A stretch of 64,000 nucleotides of DNA from Candidatus Kaiserbacteria bacterium RIFCSPHIGHO2_01_FULL_54_36 (GTDB lineage Bacteria; Patescibacteriota; Minisyncoccia; Phycocordibacterales; UBA2100), in NCBI GenBank assembly GCA_001781105.1, contig MFKV01000028.1:10428-74427 (forward strand). The letters are read 5' to 3'. The notes beneath the pieces are model-generated. The model was given only the letters and a program-made list of their open reading frames with translations, searched no databases and had not been told where the DNA came from. The translations under genes were made by a program, and so were the position numbers. Positions within the stretch are counted from its first letter, which is position 1, and each line of letters opens with the position of its first letter. This document shows, piece by piece, positions 3,672 to 64,000 of the stretch.

Positions 3672-4042
3672 CCTGCATTAGGCAGCCGCTCGCGCGCAAG
3701 CGTTGAGAGGAAAGTCCGGACACGCACATCGATCAGATGTAGTACGGTAGCGGGTAACGCCCGCCGGGGTAATCCTAGGGATGCGAACAGAGACGTCCGA
3801 GCCGAGAGGCAAAGACACCCCTGTCTGCCGACAGGCAGGCGCAAGGGTGAGCCAGTGTGGAAACGCATTGGGTGCAACGGCAAAAATCCTACCTGCGTGC
3901 AAGGCCGTGCTTGGTCGTGCCGCTTTGAACATTCGGTGTTCAGTGCGGCATGACTGAGAGAGCCGCGCGAGGTGAGTGGCAACATTCATCCCAGATACAT
4001 GGCTGCCCCCGACAGAATCCGGCTTATTGTGCAGTGCAGGCG
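3672..4042 (+). ncRNA. rnpB: RNase P RNA (bacterial type A)
   Basis: GAGAGGAAAGTCCGGAC at 3705-3720 matches the universal P4 5' strand GAGGAAAGUCCGGGC. GGTAGCGGGTAACGCCCGCCGGGG matches the E. coli GGGUGCCAGGUAACGCCUGGG region. GACAGAATCCGGCTTAT at 4011-4027 matches the P4 3' strand ACAGAACCCGGCUUA. No ORF is compatible. Ends are approximate. Confidence 0.85.
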
Positions 4043-61157: not shown

Positions 61158-62057
61158 TTATACCGCAGTCGGAGCTCCTTCCAAATTCTTTCCCGCATCT
61201 ATGAAGCCCTGGATATCGCCATTGAGTACTTTTTCGACATTTCTTTCTTCATGATCAGTGCGATGATCCTTAACCATCTGGTACGGATGAATGACATAGG
61301 AGCGGATCTGGCTGCCCCACTCAATTTTGGTTGAGGCACCCGCAGAGAGCCCACGTGATTCACGCAACTGCGCTGCTTCTTGCATGGTGTAAAGCTTGCC
61401 GCGCAACATCTCGAGCGCCTTCTCCCTATTTTGCAATTGGCTGCGCTCGCTCGTTACGTGCACGGTAAGGCCCGTCGGTTTATGCGTCATGCGCACCGCG
61501 GTATCACGCTTATTCACATTTTGACCACCCGGCCCACCTGAGCGAGCGATAGATGTTTCAAGGTCTTTTTCGGGAATATGCGTTTCCGGCAGATCCGGCA
61601 GCTTGGGCAGGACTTCGACGAGCGAAAAGCTCGTCTGGCGCTTCCCCGCGGCATTAAAAGGCGACATGCGCACTAGGCGGTGCACTCCCGCTTCGTGCTT
61701 GAGCGCGCCGTATGCGCCCTTTCCGTTTACCTCAAATGAGATACTTCGGTATCCTCCCATCGGATTTTGGTTGGAAGAAAGGAGCACTGTCTTCCATCCT
61801 TTACTCGCGCCGTACTTACCGTACATCTCAAAGAGAATGCGAGAGAAATCTTCTGCGTCGTCGCCCCCTGCGCCCGAGACTATTGTGACGAGCGCGTCGG
61901 AGCTTTCGTACCCTCCGCCGCCTACGAGCTTTGCTTTAAGGTCTTGGTACTCTTTCAGTACCATTTGGGCCTTTTCCTTATCTGCCCAAAAGTCCGCCGC
62001 GCCCATTTGGGCCTCGATCTCTGTAATGCGCGCTTCTATGGCGCCTTTTTGTTGCAT
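61158..62057 (-). CDS. prfB: Peptide chain release factor 2 (N-terminally short ORF)
   Basis: SPF tripeptide (RF2-specific) and GGQ motif. 299 aa, lacking about 65 residues relative to E. coli RF2. Confidence 0.85.
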   Translation of the reverse strand: MQQKGAIEARITEIEAQMGAADFWADKEKAQMVLKEYQDLKAKLVGGGGYESSDALVTIVSGAGGDDAEDFSRILFEMYGKYGASKGWKTVLLSSNQNPMGGYRSISFEVNGKGAYGALKHEAGVHRLVRMSPFNAAGKRQTSFSLVEVLPKLPDLPETHIPEKDLETSIARSGGPGGQNVNKRDTAVRMTHKPTGLTVHVTSERSQLQNREKALEMLRGKLYTMQEAAQLRESRGLSAGASTKIEWGSQIRSYVIHPYQMVKDHRTDHEERNVEKVLNGDIQGFIDAGKNLEGAPTAV

Positions 62058-62104
62058 TCAAAGAGTATAGCAAAGGGGAGCACGTGCGTGCTCCCGCTCG
62101 CCAT

Positions 62105-62329
62105 CTAATGATAGCGGTCCACCATCTTGAGCCCGTGGACAACCCAGTACGAGTGCCCGTCGTTTTGCGGCTCCACTTCAGCCCGACGAATGACACGGAA
62201 ACGGTTCCCAAAGATCTGATCAACGTGCCCGACCGCCGGGTCATAGTCCTCATCATGCAACGAGAAAACGACGCTGATCTTCCCATCTTCGGCATGAAGG
62301 CAGAGCAATCTCTCGCTTGGCTTGAACAT
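62105..62329 (-). CDS. Small hypothetical protein (74 aa)
   Basis: MFKPSERLLCLHAEDGKISVVFSLHDEDYDP... GGAGGT sits 7 nt upstream of the ATG. A terminator hairpin follows. Confidence 0.55.
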   Translation of the reverse strand: MFKPSERLLCLHAEDGKISVVFSLHDEDYDPAVGHVDQIFGNRFRVIRRAEVEPQNDGHSYWVVHGLKMVDRYH

Positions 62330-62401
62330 CAAGTACCTCCATGGTTGACCCTTCATCAGGAAACCATAGACAAGCCGATACTCCTAATCACTTTGCTATT
62401 G

Positions 62402-62474
62402 AGCCACCTCGCGGAATCGAACCGCGGACATCGTCTTTACGAAAGACGTGCTCTACCAACTGAGCTAAGGTGGC
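62402..62474 (-). tRNA. tRNA-Thr (anticodon CGT)
   Basis: Reverse complement is GCCACCTTAGCTCAGTTGGTAGAGCACGTCTTTCGTAAAGACGATGTCCGCGGTTCGATTCCGCGAGGTGGCT. All four stems are canonical. Confidence 0.9.
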
Positions 62475-62559
62475 AAACATCAATATCCTACGCTAAGAAA
62501 CTAGCTTTTTCAATCATTCGTTTGATTCTGGAGTCCCTATTAAAGCACGCTCGAACCTA

Positions 62560-63480
62560 TTTTGCTGAACACTCCTGATGTTCGCGCGCTCCGCGCGCGT
62601 GGTGGCTTTGTACCGGATTGTACGATTCGATTCCGTGCCTGCTCTCTCGGGCGCGCGAGTACGCCGCGCCCTCGGCCCCCGCCCCGCCGCCAATCCTCTC
62701 CGCCAAAGGCGGACAGGCATGCACATCTATTTCGCGGGGGTTTTTTGAAAATTGAATGGGCGGCGGGGTTGCGAATCGAATGCATGAAGATTCGCAAGAC
62801 CTTGCGAGCTGTTTTGGAGCGAAGCGAACAAAAGAGCCGCAAGGTGTACTGCTCCTGTAAGGAGGCGGCAAACGGCTCACATACCCGTTATGTGAGCCGT
62901 TTGGATGCGAGAATCCAAAATGCAAATCCACTGCGGATGCCACGGGTTGCGAACAGTGCCTTCGTATAGATGTTGAATTACTGCCCGCCATCCGGCGGGC
63001 AGGGTATCTCGCTAGGGCTCGTCCGGCAGTATCGGTGCGCCTACGGCGCTCCACCTTGTGGGGTGGGCACACCCACCCCCCGCTCCATCGCGCTAGTGCT
63101 CCAAAAACCCTCGTTTATACTTAGTGCCTCGCGGTGCGTCCGTTCGCTTCGTCTTTTATCGCTCATCAGTTTGATATCTTGCTACGGGTCTCATATTGCT
63201 GCCACTCCGTTTGCGTTTGTGCCTCGGCTTTTGGAGCCTCCTAGCGCGCTGCAGCTCCCCCCACCCGCGGTCAGTATTTCACTTCCACTTATTCGTACAT
63301 AGTTGCAAATCCGCTTGTGCGGGCCGGCCTCGTTACAGTCCCCCCTAGCGAGATACCTGCCCGCCAGATGGCATCCATTTTATGCACGCGCCTGCTTCGG
63401 GCAGGCGCATGACACTCGCCGCGCTTCTCGCGGCTGCGCGTCGTTTGTATATCGCATTTCACATCTGATTTTCTGCCTCC
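62560..63480. other. ORF-free, hairpin-dense GC-rich region of about 0.9 kb (candidate structured ncRNA or degenerate element)
   Basis: Numerous perfect 7-12-bp GC hairpins, plus a long-range 23-nt inverted repeat (62988-63012 against 63343-63366). Only implausible low-complexity ORFs on either strand. Confidence 0.5.
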
Positions 63481-63510
63481 TTGCAAGCAAAAGCCAAATT
63501 CAAAAATGTC

Positions 63511-63951
63511 TCAAGGTTTTGTGTAAGTTACCGCTTTTCCAGTTTTGCCAACCTGTTTTATTTTTCCTTCCTTTTCCAATGCAGAGAGATACCGTGTTGC
63601 TGTTGCGTCAGAAACGTGCAGCAACTTCTCAACTTCGTCGTTGGTGATTTTGCCTGCCCTTCGTAGCTTTAGCGTAGTAGGGCCTTTCCCATCAAGAGCT
63701 TCCAGGATCTTTTCGAGTTTCTTCTGTTTTCGGGTTTGGATCGTTGCTCGTGCTTTCACCAAGAGATCGCGCGAGGCGTGCGTGGCTTGCGGTGAGCTTG
63801 TCGAAGCCGGTGCGGGTGCCACTGACGCACTCGCCGCCTGCGGCGGCTCTGGTTCCGGAGGCAACGGCTCATTTACTGGTATTTGAGCCGATTGCGTCGG
63901 CTCGCCGGAGCCTTGCGTGGAGGGGGCGGTTTCAGGGGGAGTGGTTTGCAC
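63511..63951 (-). CDS. Winged-helix DNA-binding protein with Pro/Ala/Ser-rich N-terminal region (N-terminus may extend beyond the window)
   Basis: C-terminal ITNDEVEKLLHVSDATATRYLSALEKEGKIKQVGKTGKAVTYT is a wHTH. The frame stays open toward the window end. Confidence 0.55.
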   Translation of the reverse strand: MQTTPPETAPSTQGSGEPTQSAQIPVNEPLPPEPEPPQAASASVAPAPASTSSPQATHASRDLLVKARATIQTRKQKKLEKILEALDGKGPTTLKLRRAGKITNDEVEKLLHVSDATATRYLSALEKEGKIKQVGKTGKAVTYTKP

Positions 63952-64000
63952 AGGCTCGCTCGGCGCGACTTCGGGCGCTGGAGCAAGTTCTGCCGGTGCT

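What the first reader, a model, noticed from the sequence alone, without database searches (positions are those of the whole stretch)
62480..63510. ORF-free GC-rich hairpin forest of about 0.9 kb with a 23-nt long-range inverted repeat, a candidate large structured ncRNA or degenerate element
In an otherwise tightly packed genome, the region between tRNA-Thr and the wHTH gene has no credible ORF on either strand. It holds a series of perfect hairpins (CGCGCGC-TCC-GCGCGCG, GGGCGCG...CGCGCCC, GGCTCACATA-CCCGT-TATGTGAGCC, CTGCCCGCC-ATCC-GGCGGGCAG, GGGGTGGG-CACA-CCCACCCC, TTGCGAATC...GATTCGCAA). GGCGGGCAGGGTATCTCGCTAGGG (62988-63012) is the reverse complement of CCCTAGCGAGATACCTGCCCGCC (63343-63366), enclosing about 330 nt. 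I found no matches to rRNA, tmRNA, SRP RNA or group II domain V signatures by eye.
Basis: seen in the sequence. Interest (0 to 1): 0.65.

Follow-up and report, generated by a model that had tools for sequence, protein, structure and literature searches.

The report
Structured non-coding end of defence cassettes
The "hairpin forest" is real: it is the conserved, strongly folded, protein-free end piece of a family of swappable defence-gene cassettes in groundwater Kaiserbacteria-type (CPR) bacteria, it is kept more constant than the gene next to it, and it matches no catalogued RNA family.

Summary
Window 62480-63510 has no conserved ORF, folds far better than shuffles (z about -10), and carries a real long-range helix of about 30 bp (62987-63017 with 63343-63372).

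It is not a unique locus. It is one copy of a repeat module found in more than 100 metagenome loci.

Read on the - strand after a winged-helix (wHTH) gene, the module is:
- C (63098-63500) and B (62869-63097), a structured domain of about 640 nt
- B1 (62769-62868), an optional 100-nt insert
- a terminal inverted repeat (TIR) of about 240 nt (62536-62768)

A second, inverted TIR copy lies upstream of each cassette's cargo. Cargo includes Type III and Type II restriction-modification systems, a diversity-generating retroelement (DGR), and DUF3800+ResIII. Large serine recombinase genes sit just outside the TIR in 11 related loci, which resembles SCC elements.

C+B averages 88% nucleotide identity, against 60-70% for the adjacent wHTH gene. 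The long-range helix keeps its 323-328-nt spacing and shows compensatory changes across two clades.

There is no Rfam match. Whether the element acts as RNA or as DNA is unresolved. The 23-nt repeat does not mark the element's ends, and assemblies break inside this region.

The parts
62401..62474 (-). tRNA-Thr(CGU) gene. It is the chromosomal flank of the element. The same kind of tRNA gene lies next to the element in three other contigs.
   Evidence: ARAGORN and Rfam. tRNA-Thr(cgt) lies 55-75 nt outside the TIR in L117, L173 and L188.
62485..62535 (-). tRNA-Thr promoter block (TTGAAA-17-TAGGAT). This is chromosomal sequence, not part of the element. Its inner edge, CTCCAGAATCAAAC, overlaps the consensus of the element's outer end.
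   Evidence: Promoter scan. The block 62488-62535 is conserved in relatives L089/L090, which lack the element. Overlap with the TIR end consensus.
62536..62768 (.). Terminal inverted repeat (TIR), right-end copy. It holds the GC hairpins 62583-62599 and 62649-62671. It also holds the long hairpin CCCCCGCCCCGCCGCC (62676-62691) with GGGCGGCGGGG (62758-62768), which encloses a terminator-like CGCGGGGG-T6 (62733-62746) that faces into the cassette.
   Evidence: The same sequence occurs in opposite orientation upstream of the first gene of every cassette. The motif GCGCGCTCCGCGCGCGYKGTGGCTTTG occurs in 87 metagenome stretches and only once in the window. The terminus consensus is TGACTCTATACAAC..GCTCGAACCTATTTT.
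62769..62868 (-). B1, an optional 100-nt insert with two hairpins (TTGCGAATC..GATTCGCAA and CTTGCGAG..). It is absent from many copies.
   Evidence: Missing in L093, L113 and L114; present in L092, L105, L111, L122 and L188.
62869..63097 (-). B, the distal half of the conserved structured domain. It ends in the perfect 15-bp hairpin 62869-62903 and contains the 3' arm (on the - strand) of the long-range helix.
   Evidence: nhmmer hits in all cassette right ends. Alignment A4.
62987..63017 (-). Long-range helix, 3' arm as read on the - strand. It can alternatively form the local hairpin CTGCCCGCC-ATCC-GGCGGGCAG (62981-63002).
   Evidence: (I3, I4). Conserved pairing with compensatory changes and a 323-328-nt spacing in 36 loci.
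63098..63500 (-). C, the proximal half of the conserved structured domain. It starts about 10-25 nt after the wHTH stop codon with TTGCAAGGAGG.
   Evidence: Alignments A2-A4. Conserved downstream of every wHTH allele examined, including cargo-less units L205 and L207.
63140..63205 (-). Mosaic variable patch inside C. Two sequence types are exchanged among otherwise near-identical copies.
   Evidence: Window versus L001. Type 1 and type 2 distribution in A4.
63343..63372 (-). Long-range helix, 5' arm as read on the - strand.
63511..64000 (-). wHTH gene (176 aa, NCBI locus tag A2763_03380, Candidatus Kaiserbacteria). It is the last gene of the cassette. Its 5' end runs off the window.
   Evidence: Pfam HTH_24. 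Full gene in L001 415-945. Family of 1864 proteins. Fold resembles ArsR/MarR and eS25 winged helices.

Best explanation
Window 62536-63510 is the conserved non-coding right end of a cassette-type genomic element of Kaiserbacteria-like CPR bacteria.

Shown:
- The element is bounded by two inverted copies of a roughly 240-nt repeat (TIR).
- The cargo between the repeats varies and is mostly defence genes.
- The last gene is always a small wHTH protein. It is always followed by a roughly 640-nt domain (C+B) and then the TIR.
- C+B is under much stronger constraint than the wHTH gene.
- Its helices, including a 25-30-bp long-range helix closing a roughly 325-nt multi-hairpin domain, are kept by compensatory changes.
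- Large serine recombinase (LSR) genes recur just outside the TIR.

Inferred:
- The TIRs are the sites through which an LSR, supplied in trans for the window's copy, integrates, excises or inverts cassettes, as Ccr recombinases do for SCC and pseudo-SCC elements.
- The location just upstream of the tRNA-Thr(CGU) promoter is a preferred site.
- C+B works as a folded single strand. The most likely form is an RNA of about 0.65 kb or more, made by read-through from or just after the wHTH gene on the - strand.
- That RNA would serve the element's backbone (control of cassette expression or of recombination, possibly together with the wHTH protein), not any one cargo.
For: Architecture. Contigs carrying the window's wHTH protein show the order Transglut_core, AAA_5, bAvd, RT, wHTH, then C, B and TIR. 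The same TIR lies inverted upstream of Transglut_core.

Other cargos have the same ends:
- N6_N4 methylase + ResIII (L105, L113)
- DUF3800 + ResIII (L101)
- Dcm + Vsr + DUF6339 (L110-L112)
- HaeII endonuclease + Dcm (L151)
- a DUF5667 set in tandem (L094)

A relative without the element keeps only the tRNA promoter block.

Spread. The TIR motif occurs in 87 metagenome stretches from several aquifers. It occurs often at contig ends and as inverted pairs 3.7-7 kb apart.

Constraint. Across 171 pairs of units, C+B averages 88% nucleotide identity. The two halves of the wHTH gene average 60% and 70%. C+B is the more conserved in 161 of 171 pairs.

Structure:
- z about -10 for the core.
- The long-range helix is present in 36 loci with a 323-328-nt spacing.
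- Its arms are GGCGGGCAGGTATCTCGCTAGGG in clade 1 and CGCCTCGGGCATTTCCGCTAGGG in clade 2, each fully compensated on the other arm.
- Further single compensations exist: A-U to G-C in L203 with a G.U intermediate in L117; C-G to U-A in L151 and L180; G-C to A-U in L159 and L165.
- In the five-sequence clade-2 alignment, 23 of 113 predicted pairs have changes on both sides. Column shuffles give 10.8 +/- 2.2 (0 of 500 reach 23), and slid partners give 4-10.

Strand hint. In the long-range helix, wobble variants fall on the wHTH-sense strand: 5 G.U-type against 0-1 A.C-type. wHTH, C+B, the TIR and tRNA-Thr are co-oriented.

Recombinase. Proteins with Resolvase + Recombinase + Zn_ribbon_recom domains abut the TIR outer end in L101, L117, L119, L123, L133, L142, L180, L182, L192, L193 and L194.

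Site preference. tRNA-Thr(cgt) adjoins the element in the window, L117/L173 and L188.
Against: - No transcription data exist, and no clear promoter or terminator brackets C+B.
- The fold is equally good on both strands (z -10.0 against -9.7; consensus energies -139.8 against -141.8 in clade 2).
- Over all predicted pairs, G.U-type and A.C-type variants are equal, 23 against 23.
- Within clade 1 there is almost no covariation because the sequence barely varies.
- Hairpin loops flip to their reverse complement between copies (AGAAG and CTTCT). Most loops are short loops on perfect GC stems. Both features look more like DNA palindromes than like classic RNA motifs.
- The mosaic variable patch shows that copies recombine, so part of the conservation could be homogenisation.
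- No recombinase lies in the window's 64 kb, and no target-site duplication or att core was demonstrated.
- Both orientations of the window's cassette occur in assemblies. But the two TIR copies share 152 identical bases, more than the assembler's k of 141, so this proves nothing.
Confidence: 0.5

Rival explanations
1. C+B and the TIR act as double-stranded or transiently single-stranded DNA, not as RNA. They would be recombination, accessory or regulatory sites. For example, they could be binding arrays for the wHTH protein and the serine recombinase, with the two long-range arms as paired sites brought together by looping or cruciform extrusion.
For: - The fold is symmetric on the two strands, and wobble counts overall are equal.
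- Hairpin loops invert between copies, as DNA palindromes do.
- The wHTH fold is closest to ArsR/MarR DNA-binding repressors, and all 52 members hit HTH_24.
- The recombinase genes and the TIR are physically linked.
- The arms would also co-vary if both were sites for one protein.
Against: - Neither arm is itself palindromic, as a dimer operator would be.
- Perfect complementarity of 24-30 nt with single-base compensations and a G.U intermediate is what pairing predicts, not protein recognition.
- Many local stems also covary, including C-G to G-C transversions.
- 640 nt at 88% identity is far more than known serine-recombinase sites need.
Confidence: 0.28
2. The region has no function of its own. 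It would be a repeat kept similar by frequent recombination or gene conversion among cassette copies and by recent horizontal spread. It may double as homology arms for cassette swapping or as a passive transcription insulator.
For: - The mosaic patch and chimeric copies show exchange between copies.
- Different cargos, each with its own wHTH allele, sit at the same chromosomal flank. Examples are the glyoxalase side in L092 and L111 and the guaA side in L110 and L203. This fits swapping through conserved flanks.
- The TIR carries an inward-facing terminator-like hairpin.
Against: - Conservation holds between distant sites (Colorado, Germany and others).
- It stops sharply at the wHTH stop codon.
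- Clade 2 is highly diverged in sequence, yet keeps the helix, its spacing and many stems through compensatory change. Homogenisation does not produce that.
Confidence: 0.14
3. The region is a decayed protein-coding gene, for example a dead transposase or reverse transcriptase.
For: ORFs of 100-204 aa are open, and some gene callers annotate them.
Against: - No Pfam hit.
- Open frames differ in strand, frame and position between copies, and some copies have none.
- Indels of 1 nt and 100 nt are tolerated.
- The sequence is more conserved than the real gene beside it.
Confidence: 0.03
4. The window's arrangement is an assembly artefact, a chimeric join through a repeat.
For: - Contigs break inside the region, and the NCBI contigs end at window-equivalents 63134 and 63096.
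- L001 joins the tRNA side to the opposite end of the cassette.
- The identical TIR core is 152 nt, longer than k = 141.
- L113 is a palindromic contig.
Against: - The stretch TIR-B1-B-C-wHTH is unique sequence. It is contiguous in many independent contigs from different samples and assemblers.
- The same order, tRNA-Thr then TIR, B, C and wHTH, recurs in other lineages (L117, L173, L188).
- Only the orientation of the cassette relative to its flanks is in doubt.
Confidence: 0.05

Closest known systems
Staphylococcal/enterococcal cassette chromosome elements (SCC, pseudo-SCC, composite islands) moved by large serine recombinases CcrAB/CcrC
   Same: - Cassettes with variable cargo, including restriction-modification and anti-phage genes.
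- Bounded by inverted repeats.
- Sit at a preferred site next to a housekeeping gene.
- Occur in tandem arrays.
- Many copies lack their own recombinase while large serine recombinase genes sit in neighbouring units.
(literature PMC6222049, PMC10055296)
   Different: - The repeats here are about 240 nt, not about 20 nt.
- The preferred site is upstream of tRNA-Thr, not in rlmH.
- Every unit carries a wHTH gene plus a roughly 640-nt conserved structured non-coding domain, which has no SCC counterpart.
- The host is a CPR bacterium.
- Recombination by the recombinase is inferred, not shown.
Large structured bacterial ncRNAs linked to mobile elements or tRNAs (GOLLD, ROOL, OLE, HEARO/omega RNA, IS110 bridge RNA)
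   Same: - The size class is similar (0.6-0.9 kb).
- The architecture is dense and multi-hairpin, closed by long-range helices.
- It is linked to mobile DNA and, here, to a tRNA gene.
- It lies at an element end, like omega and bridge RNAs.
   Different: - No match to any of these Rfam models, even at E <= 10.
- No RNA-guided nuclease or DEDD recombinase is adjacent.
- Transcription is unproven.
- The fold is strand-symmetric.
Mobile forms of restriction-modification systems flanked by long repeats (Furuta, Abe & Kobayashi 2010, PMC2853133)
   Same: Restriction-modification gene complexes are bracketed by long inverted repeats and linked to rearrangements and recombinase genes.
   Different: Those cases are heterogeneous and lack a shared conserved structured module. 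Here one backbone serves many cargo types.
Integron attC sites and IS200/IS605 ends (recombination sites recognised as folded single-stranded DNA)
   Same: The structure is conserved more than the sequence between clades, and the element sits at cassette boundaries.
   Different: - attC sites are 60-140 nt, and IS ends are single hairpins.
- No IntI or HUH enzyme was found.
- The cassettes here are multi-gene and carry their own promoters.

Membership tests
Any Rfam 15 family (GOLLD, ROOL, OLE, HEARO, group I/II introns, tmRNA, RNase P, hammerhead, DUF3800 motifs and others) | Covariance-model match at or near the gathering score | tested here: not met
   cmscan of the window at gathering score finds only RNase P RNA and three tRNAs. 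The E <= 10 scan of 62300-63700 gives only noise. The divergent copies L101, L151, L205 and L117 also give nothing.
SCC-like cassette elements moved by large serine recombinases | A large serine recombinase gene belonging to the element or a neighbouring unit | tested here: inconclusive
   Resolvase + Recombinase + Zn_ribbon_recom proteins abut the TIR outer end in 11 related loci. None is present in the window's 64 kb.
SCC-like cassette elements moved by large serine recombinases | Site-specific insertion with a short core repeated at both junctions | tested here: inconclusive
   A location just upstream of tRNA-Thr(cgt) recurs in the window, L117/L173 and L188. A 14-nt stretch, CTCCAGAATCAAAC, is shared by the TIR-end consensus and the empty site in L089. 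No pair of direct repeats was identified.
SCC-like cassette elements moved by large serine recombinases | Terminal inverted repeats, variable cargo, tandem composite arrays | tested here: met
   Inverted TIR pairs occur in L117, L122, L151, L173 and L188. Tandem units occur in L094, L117, L131 and L158. At least six cargo types were seen.
IS element or MITE | Transposase (autonomous or identifiable in trans) and target-site duplication | tested here: not met
   Clustering of 1158 ORFs from the loci, plus Pfam scans of the recurrent families, found no DDE or HUH transposase. No duplication is evident at the termini. The TIR unit has no terminal repeats of its own.
Integron gene cassette / attC | IntI tyrosine integrase; short attC imperfect palindrome; promoterless single-gene cassettes | tested here: not met
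   No tyrosine recombinase appears among the recurrent families. The cassettes are multi-gene, and the boundary module is about 1 kb.
Diversity-generating retroelement component (TR, VR or spacer RNA) | Similarity to the TR/VR pair, and dependence on RT and Avd | tested here: not met
   The window's cassette has a complete DGR, but its TR/VR pair (L001 2451-2564 and 2937-3050) does not match 62000-64000. The same C+B-TIR module follows cassettes that have no RT.
Serine-invertase-type invertible segment (Hin/Gin-like) | Both orientations present in one population, between inverted sites | tested here: inconclusive
   Both orientations are assembled (L091+L095 against L096+L092). The TIR copies are identical over 152 nt, more than k = 141, so the assemblies cannot distinguish real inversion from graph ambiguity.
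Structured non-coding RNA (generic) | Conserved secondary structure supported by covariation | tested here: met
   23 of 113 pairs have changes on both sides, against 10.8 +/- 2.2 in shuffles and 4-10 in slid controls. The long-range helix is compensated across clades with constant spacing.
Structured non-coding RNA (generic) | Transcription, a defined strand and defined ends | not testable with these tools
   No expression data are available. Strand tests are equivocal, apart from a 5:0-1 wobble bias in one helix.

The most novel reading that the evidence does not exclude
C+B is a new class of large structured RNA (about 0.65-0.9 kb). Together with its always-adjacent winged-helix protein, which shows a weak likeness to ribosomal protein eS25, it forms a ribonucleoprotein. 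That ribonucleoprotein would be the common backbone of serine-recombinase-moved defence cassettes in CPR bacteria. It might license or direct cassette recombination, or switch cassette expression on phage attack.
Probability: 0.15. Interest if true: 0.85.

Novelty: new variant of a known kind. Interest (0 to 1): 0.62.

Why it matters
CPR bacteria have tiny genomes and mostly lack CRISPR, and how they acquire and shuffle defence genes is poorly known.

This module marks a shared backbone under which Type II and Type III restriction-modification systems, a DGR-diversified NTPase and other systems are exchanged at the same chromosomal sites. It is therefore a practical handle for finding defence islands in these genomes.

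A roughly 640-nt non-coding domain that stays at 88% identity while the neighbouring gene drifts to 60-70%, and whose helices are kept by compensatory change, is a strong candidate for a new large functional RNA or a new kind of folded-DNA site.

The module also explains why assemblies of these genomes fragment here, and why gene callers report spurious ORFs. Two examples are the '307 aa' protein that masks the real reverse transcriptase and the ORFs of 95-232 aa called inside C+B.

Tried and rejected
2. The 83-aa neighbour protein has only one relative. That relative gave the 'empty site' but no homologue of the region.
3. Rfam at gathering score and at E <= 10, on the window and on divergent copies, gave no family.
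4. A CUGAUGAG string in the variable patch is not a hammerhead. It has no Rfam hit and is absent from the type-2 patch.
5. tRNA-like strings in the TIR (GATTCGATTCC, GTGGTGGCT) are in the wrong order for a tRNA fragment, and ARAGORN and Rfam find nothing.
6. Coding potential was rejected.
7. Two scans of viral contigs (IMG/VR) with TIR and C motifs gave zero hits, so there is no sign of a phage origin.
8. Strand assignment from wobble asymmetry over all pairs, and from consensus folding energies, was inconclusive.
9. The wHTH structure prediction and fold search gave only a generic winged helix, with ArsR/MarR and eS25 about equally close. This does not separate DNA binding from RNA binding.
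10. A covariance model of the roughly 390-nt core was not built, because models of that length exceed the tool's calibration limit.
11. Inversion of the cassette could not be claimed, for the k-mer reason given.
12. No target-site duplication was found.
Full report
**1. The observation**

The region lies between tRNA-Thr(CGU) (62401-62474, - strand) and a winged-helix gene whose stop codon is at 63511-63513 and whose start lies beyond the window end.

- The long-range inverted repeat is real and longer than reported. The arms are 62987-63017 and 63343-63372, about 30 bp with one mismatch and one bulge, 325 nt apart.
- A perfect 15-nt long-range repeat exceeds all 60 dinucleotide shuffles, which have a maximum of 11.
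- The 632-nt core folds at -279.8 kcal/mol against -221.8 +/- 5.8 for shuffles, z = -10.0. The complementary strand gives z = -9.7.
- ORFs of up to 171 aa are open on both strands. They have no Pfam match and are not conserved in frame, strand or position among copies.
- Rfam 15 gives nothing at gathering score or at E <= 10.

**2. It is a repeat module, and assemblies break in it**

An exact look-up of the neighbouring RF2 protein places the window in Rifle-aquifer Candidatus Kaiserbacteria (NCBI GCA_001781725.1).

- Contigs from many samples end inside the region, at window-equivalents 62621, 62660, 62721, 62768, 63098 and 63134.
- One 33-kb contig (L001) joins the tRNA side at 62768 to a different sequence, and it carries window 63098-64000 about 7.7 kb away in the other orientation.
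- A relative whose 78-aa protein is 64% identical to the window's 83-aa protein has tRNA-Thr(cgt) and the promoter block equivalent to 62488-62535. It then continues directly into a second tRNA-Thr gene and has no 1-kb region.

**3. Anatomy**

Contigs that encode the window's wHTH protein, compared with the window, show a cassette in this order: Transglut_core (876 aa), AAA_5 NTPase (983 aa), bAvd, reverse transcriptase, wHTH.

Reading on from the wHTH stop codon, the module is:
- C (window 63500 down to 63098)
- B (63097 down to 62869)
- B1, optional (62868 down to 62769)
- a repeat of about 240 nt (62768 down to 62536)

The same repeat lies in the opposite orientation just upstream of Transglut_core in all ten contigs. 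It is therefore a terminal inverted repeat (TIR).

Other wHTH alleles (59-74% amino-acid identity) end quite different cassettes. All are followed by C, B and the TIR, and all are preceded by an inverted TIR:
- N6_N4 methylase + ResIII
- DUF3800 + ResIII
- a 445/307/221-aa set from the Hainich aquifer
- Dcm + Vsr + DUF6339
- a DUF5667 set in tandem with the window's cassette type

The TIR terminus reads inward as TGACTCTATACAAC..GCTCGAACCTATTTT, with a variant in the window's copy.

A scan of metagenome contigs with a 27-nt TIR motif found 87 stretches from several sites. Matches lie often at contig ends. Some are inverted pairs 3.7-7 kb apart, and some are in tandem. The window holds only one copy.

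Units without cargo also exist: wHTH-C-B-TIR alone lies beside a riboflavin operon in L205, and similarly in L207. So wHTH-C-B-TIR is the constant unit.

Clustering all ORFs of these loci shows that the commonest cargo is Type III restriction-modification (Mod in 38 loci, Res in 13). L151 carries HaeII + Dcm.

**4. Recombinase link**

The only recurrent mobility protein is a large serine recombinase with Resolvase + Recombinase + Zn_ribbon_recom domains (500-575 aa, 21-88% identical to one another).

- In 11 loci it lies immediately outside the TIR outer end. Either its 3' end runs into the TIR, or it starts 150-300 nt away.
- In L101 an inverted copy of its own C-terminal coding part lies between the TIR and the gene.
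- In L117 the recombinase segment is itself bracketed by TIRs whose conserved sequence extends further outward.
- None is encoded in the window.
- The element lies 55-75 nt upstream of a co-oriented tRNA-Thr(cgt) gene in the window, L117/L173 and L188, with different cargos.
- A 14-nt stretch, CTCCAGAATCAAAC, is shared by the TIR-end consensus and the empty site.

Taken together this resembles SCC and pseudo-SCC elements and their composite islands (PMC6222049, PMC10055296). Recombination itself is inferred, not shown.

Both orientations of the window's cassette relative to its two flanks are assembled. However, the two TIR copies are identical over 152 nt, more than k = 141, so real inversion cannot be told apart from graph ambiguity.

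**5. The C+B domain**

*Conservation.* Among 19 distinct units (171 pairs), mean nucleotide identity is 60% and 70% for the two halves of the wHTH gene, and 88% for C+B. C+B is the more conserved in 161 of 171 pairs. Long blocks are invariant in the 20-sequence alignment.

*Where variation sits.* Variation is confined to hairpin loops, some of which flip to their reverse complement, and to a mosaic patch (63140-63205) with two types that are exchanged among copies.

*The long-range helix.*
- It is found in 36 loci with a spacing of 323-328 nt.
- A second, strongly diverged clade (L101, L151, L159, L165, L180) has different arms, CGCCTCGGGCATTTCCGCTAGGG paired with CCCTAGCGGAAATGCCCGAGGCG. They are perfectly complementary, and in L101 the gap is again 325 nt.
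- Single compensations occur within clades, including an A-U, G.U, G-C series.

*Covariation statistics.* In clade 2, RNAalifold predicts 113 pairs, and 23 of them have changes on both sides. That compares with 10.8 +/- 2.2 in 500 shuffles (none reach 23) and 4-10 when partners are slid. 90.6% of cells are paired, against about 43% when slid. Clade 1 alone shows almost no covariation because it barely varies.

**6. RNA or DNA, and which strand**

Folding energy, consensus energy and overall wobble counts do not separate the strands.

In favour of a wHTH-sense single strand:
- Five wobble variants, against none or one A.C-type variant, in the long-range helix.
- wHTH, C+B, the TIR and tRNA-Thr are co-oriented.

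In favour of DNA:
- The loop flips.
- The short loops on perfect GC stems.
- The ArsR/MarR-like fold of the wHTH protein. This fold is equally close to ribosomal protein eS25, so the protein does not decide the question.

There is no phage signal.

**7. Verdict**

It is the conserved, structured, non-coding right end of a family of inverted-repeat-bounded defence cassettes linked to serine recombinases in CPR bacteria. It also includes the adjoining tRNA promoter at 62480-62535.

- I put about 0.85 on that anatomical statement.
- I put about 0.4-0.45 on C+B acting as an RNA, and about 0.3 on a DNA-level role.
- The 23-nt repeat is an internal closing helix, not an element boundary.
- The system works like an SCC-type cassette platform, but its long TIRs and its wHTH plus 640-nt structured module have no described counterpart.

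Noticed in passing
L001 1097-3066 (just beyond the window end, on the wHTH side); also L094 6616-7632: The window's cassette carries a complete and apparently active DGR. It has an RVT_1 reverse transcriptase (338 aa), bAvd, and a 114-nt TR/VR pair in which every mismatch falls at a TR adenine. The VR is at the 3' end of the 983-aa AAA_5 gene. Public gene calls miss the RT and instead report an antisense '307 aa' ORF.
   Followed up: partly
L113 1-11795: The contig is a gene-order palindrome: the same five flank genes appear in mirror order on both sides of one cassette. This is most likely an assembly path that re-entered the same flank through the inverted repeat.
   Followed up: no
L101 5351-5503 and 5512-7134; L117 8400-11993: An inverted copy of the serine recombinase's own C-terminal coding part (82% over 51 aa) lies between the TIR and the recombinase gene. 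In L117 the recombinase segment is itself flanked by inverted TIRs with extended homology, which suggests the recombinase gene sits in an invertible segment.
   Followed up: partly
window 63418-63434 and the equivalent positions in other copies: The hairpin GCCGCG-loop-CGCGGC has loop AGAAG in some copies and its reverse complement CTTCT in others. This is a flip-flop typical of DNA palindromes.
   Followed up: no
L089 350-890 / L090: In the relative that lacks the element, two tRNA-Thr genes (ggt and cgt) are separated by repeated GC hairpins. Partial copies of the tRNA 5' end (GCTAAGGTGGCG) are also present, possibly scars of earlier insertions.
   Followed up: no
window 3673-4038 (+): RNase P RNA (bacterial class A) scores only 111 bits, just above the gathering score of 100. 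This may reflect a reduced or divergent CPR form.
   Followed up: no
window 61158-62057 (-): The RF2-type release factor is short (299 aa). Its PCRF domain matches only from profile position 86 onward.
   Followed up: no
window 63490-63500 and the starts of all C copies: A Shine-Dalgarno-like AGGAGG/GGGAG motif, within TTGCAAGGAGG, is conserved at the start of C in both clades. No conserved small ORF follows it.
   Followed up: partly
L205 2837-2953: An FMN riboswitch lies directly upstream of a cargo-less wHTH-C-B-TIR unit, leaving under 50 nt for the wHTH promoter.
   Followed up: no
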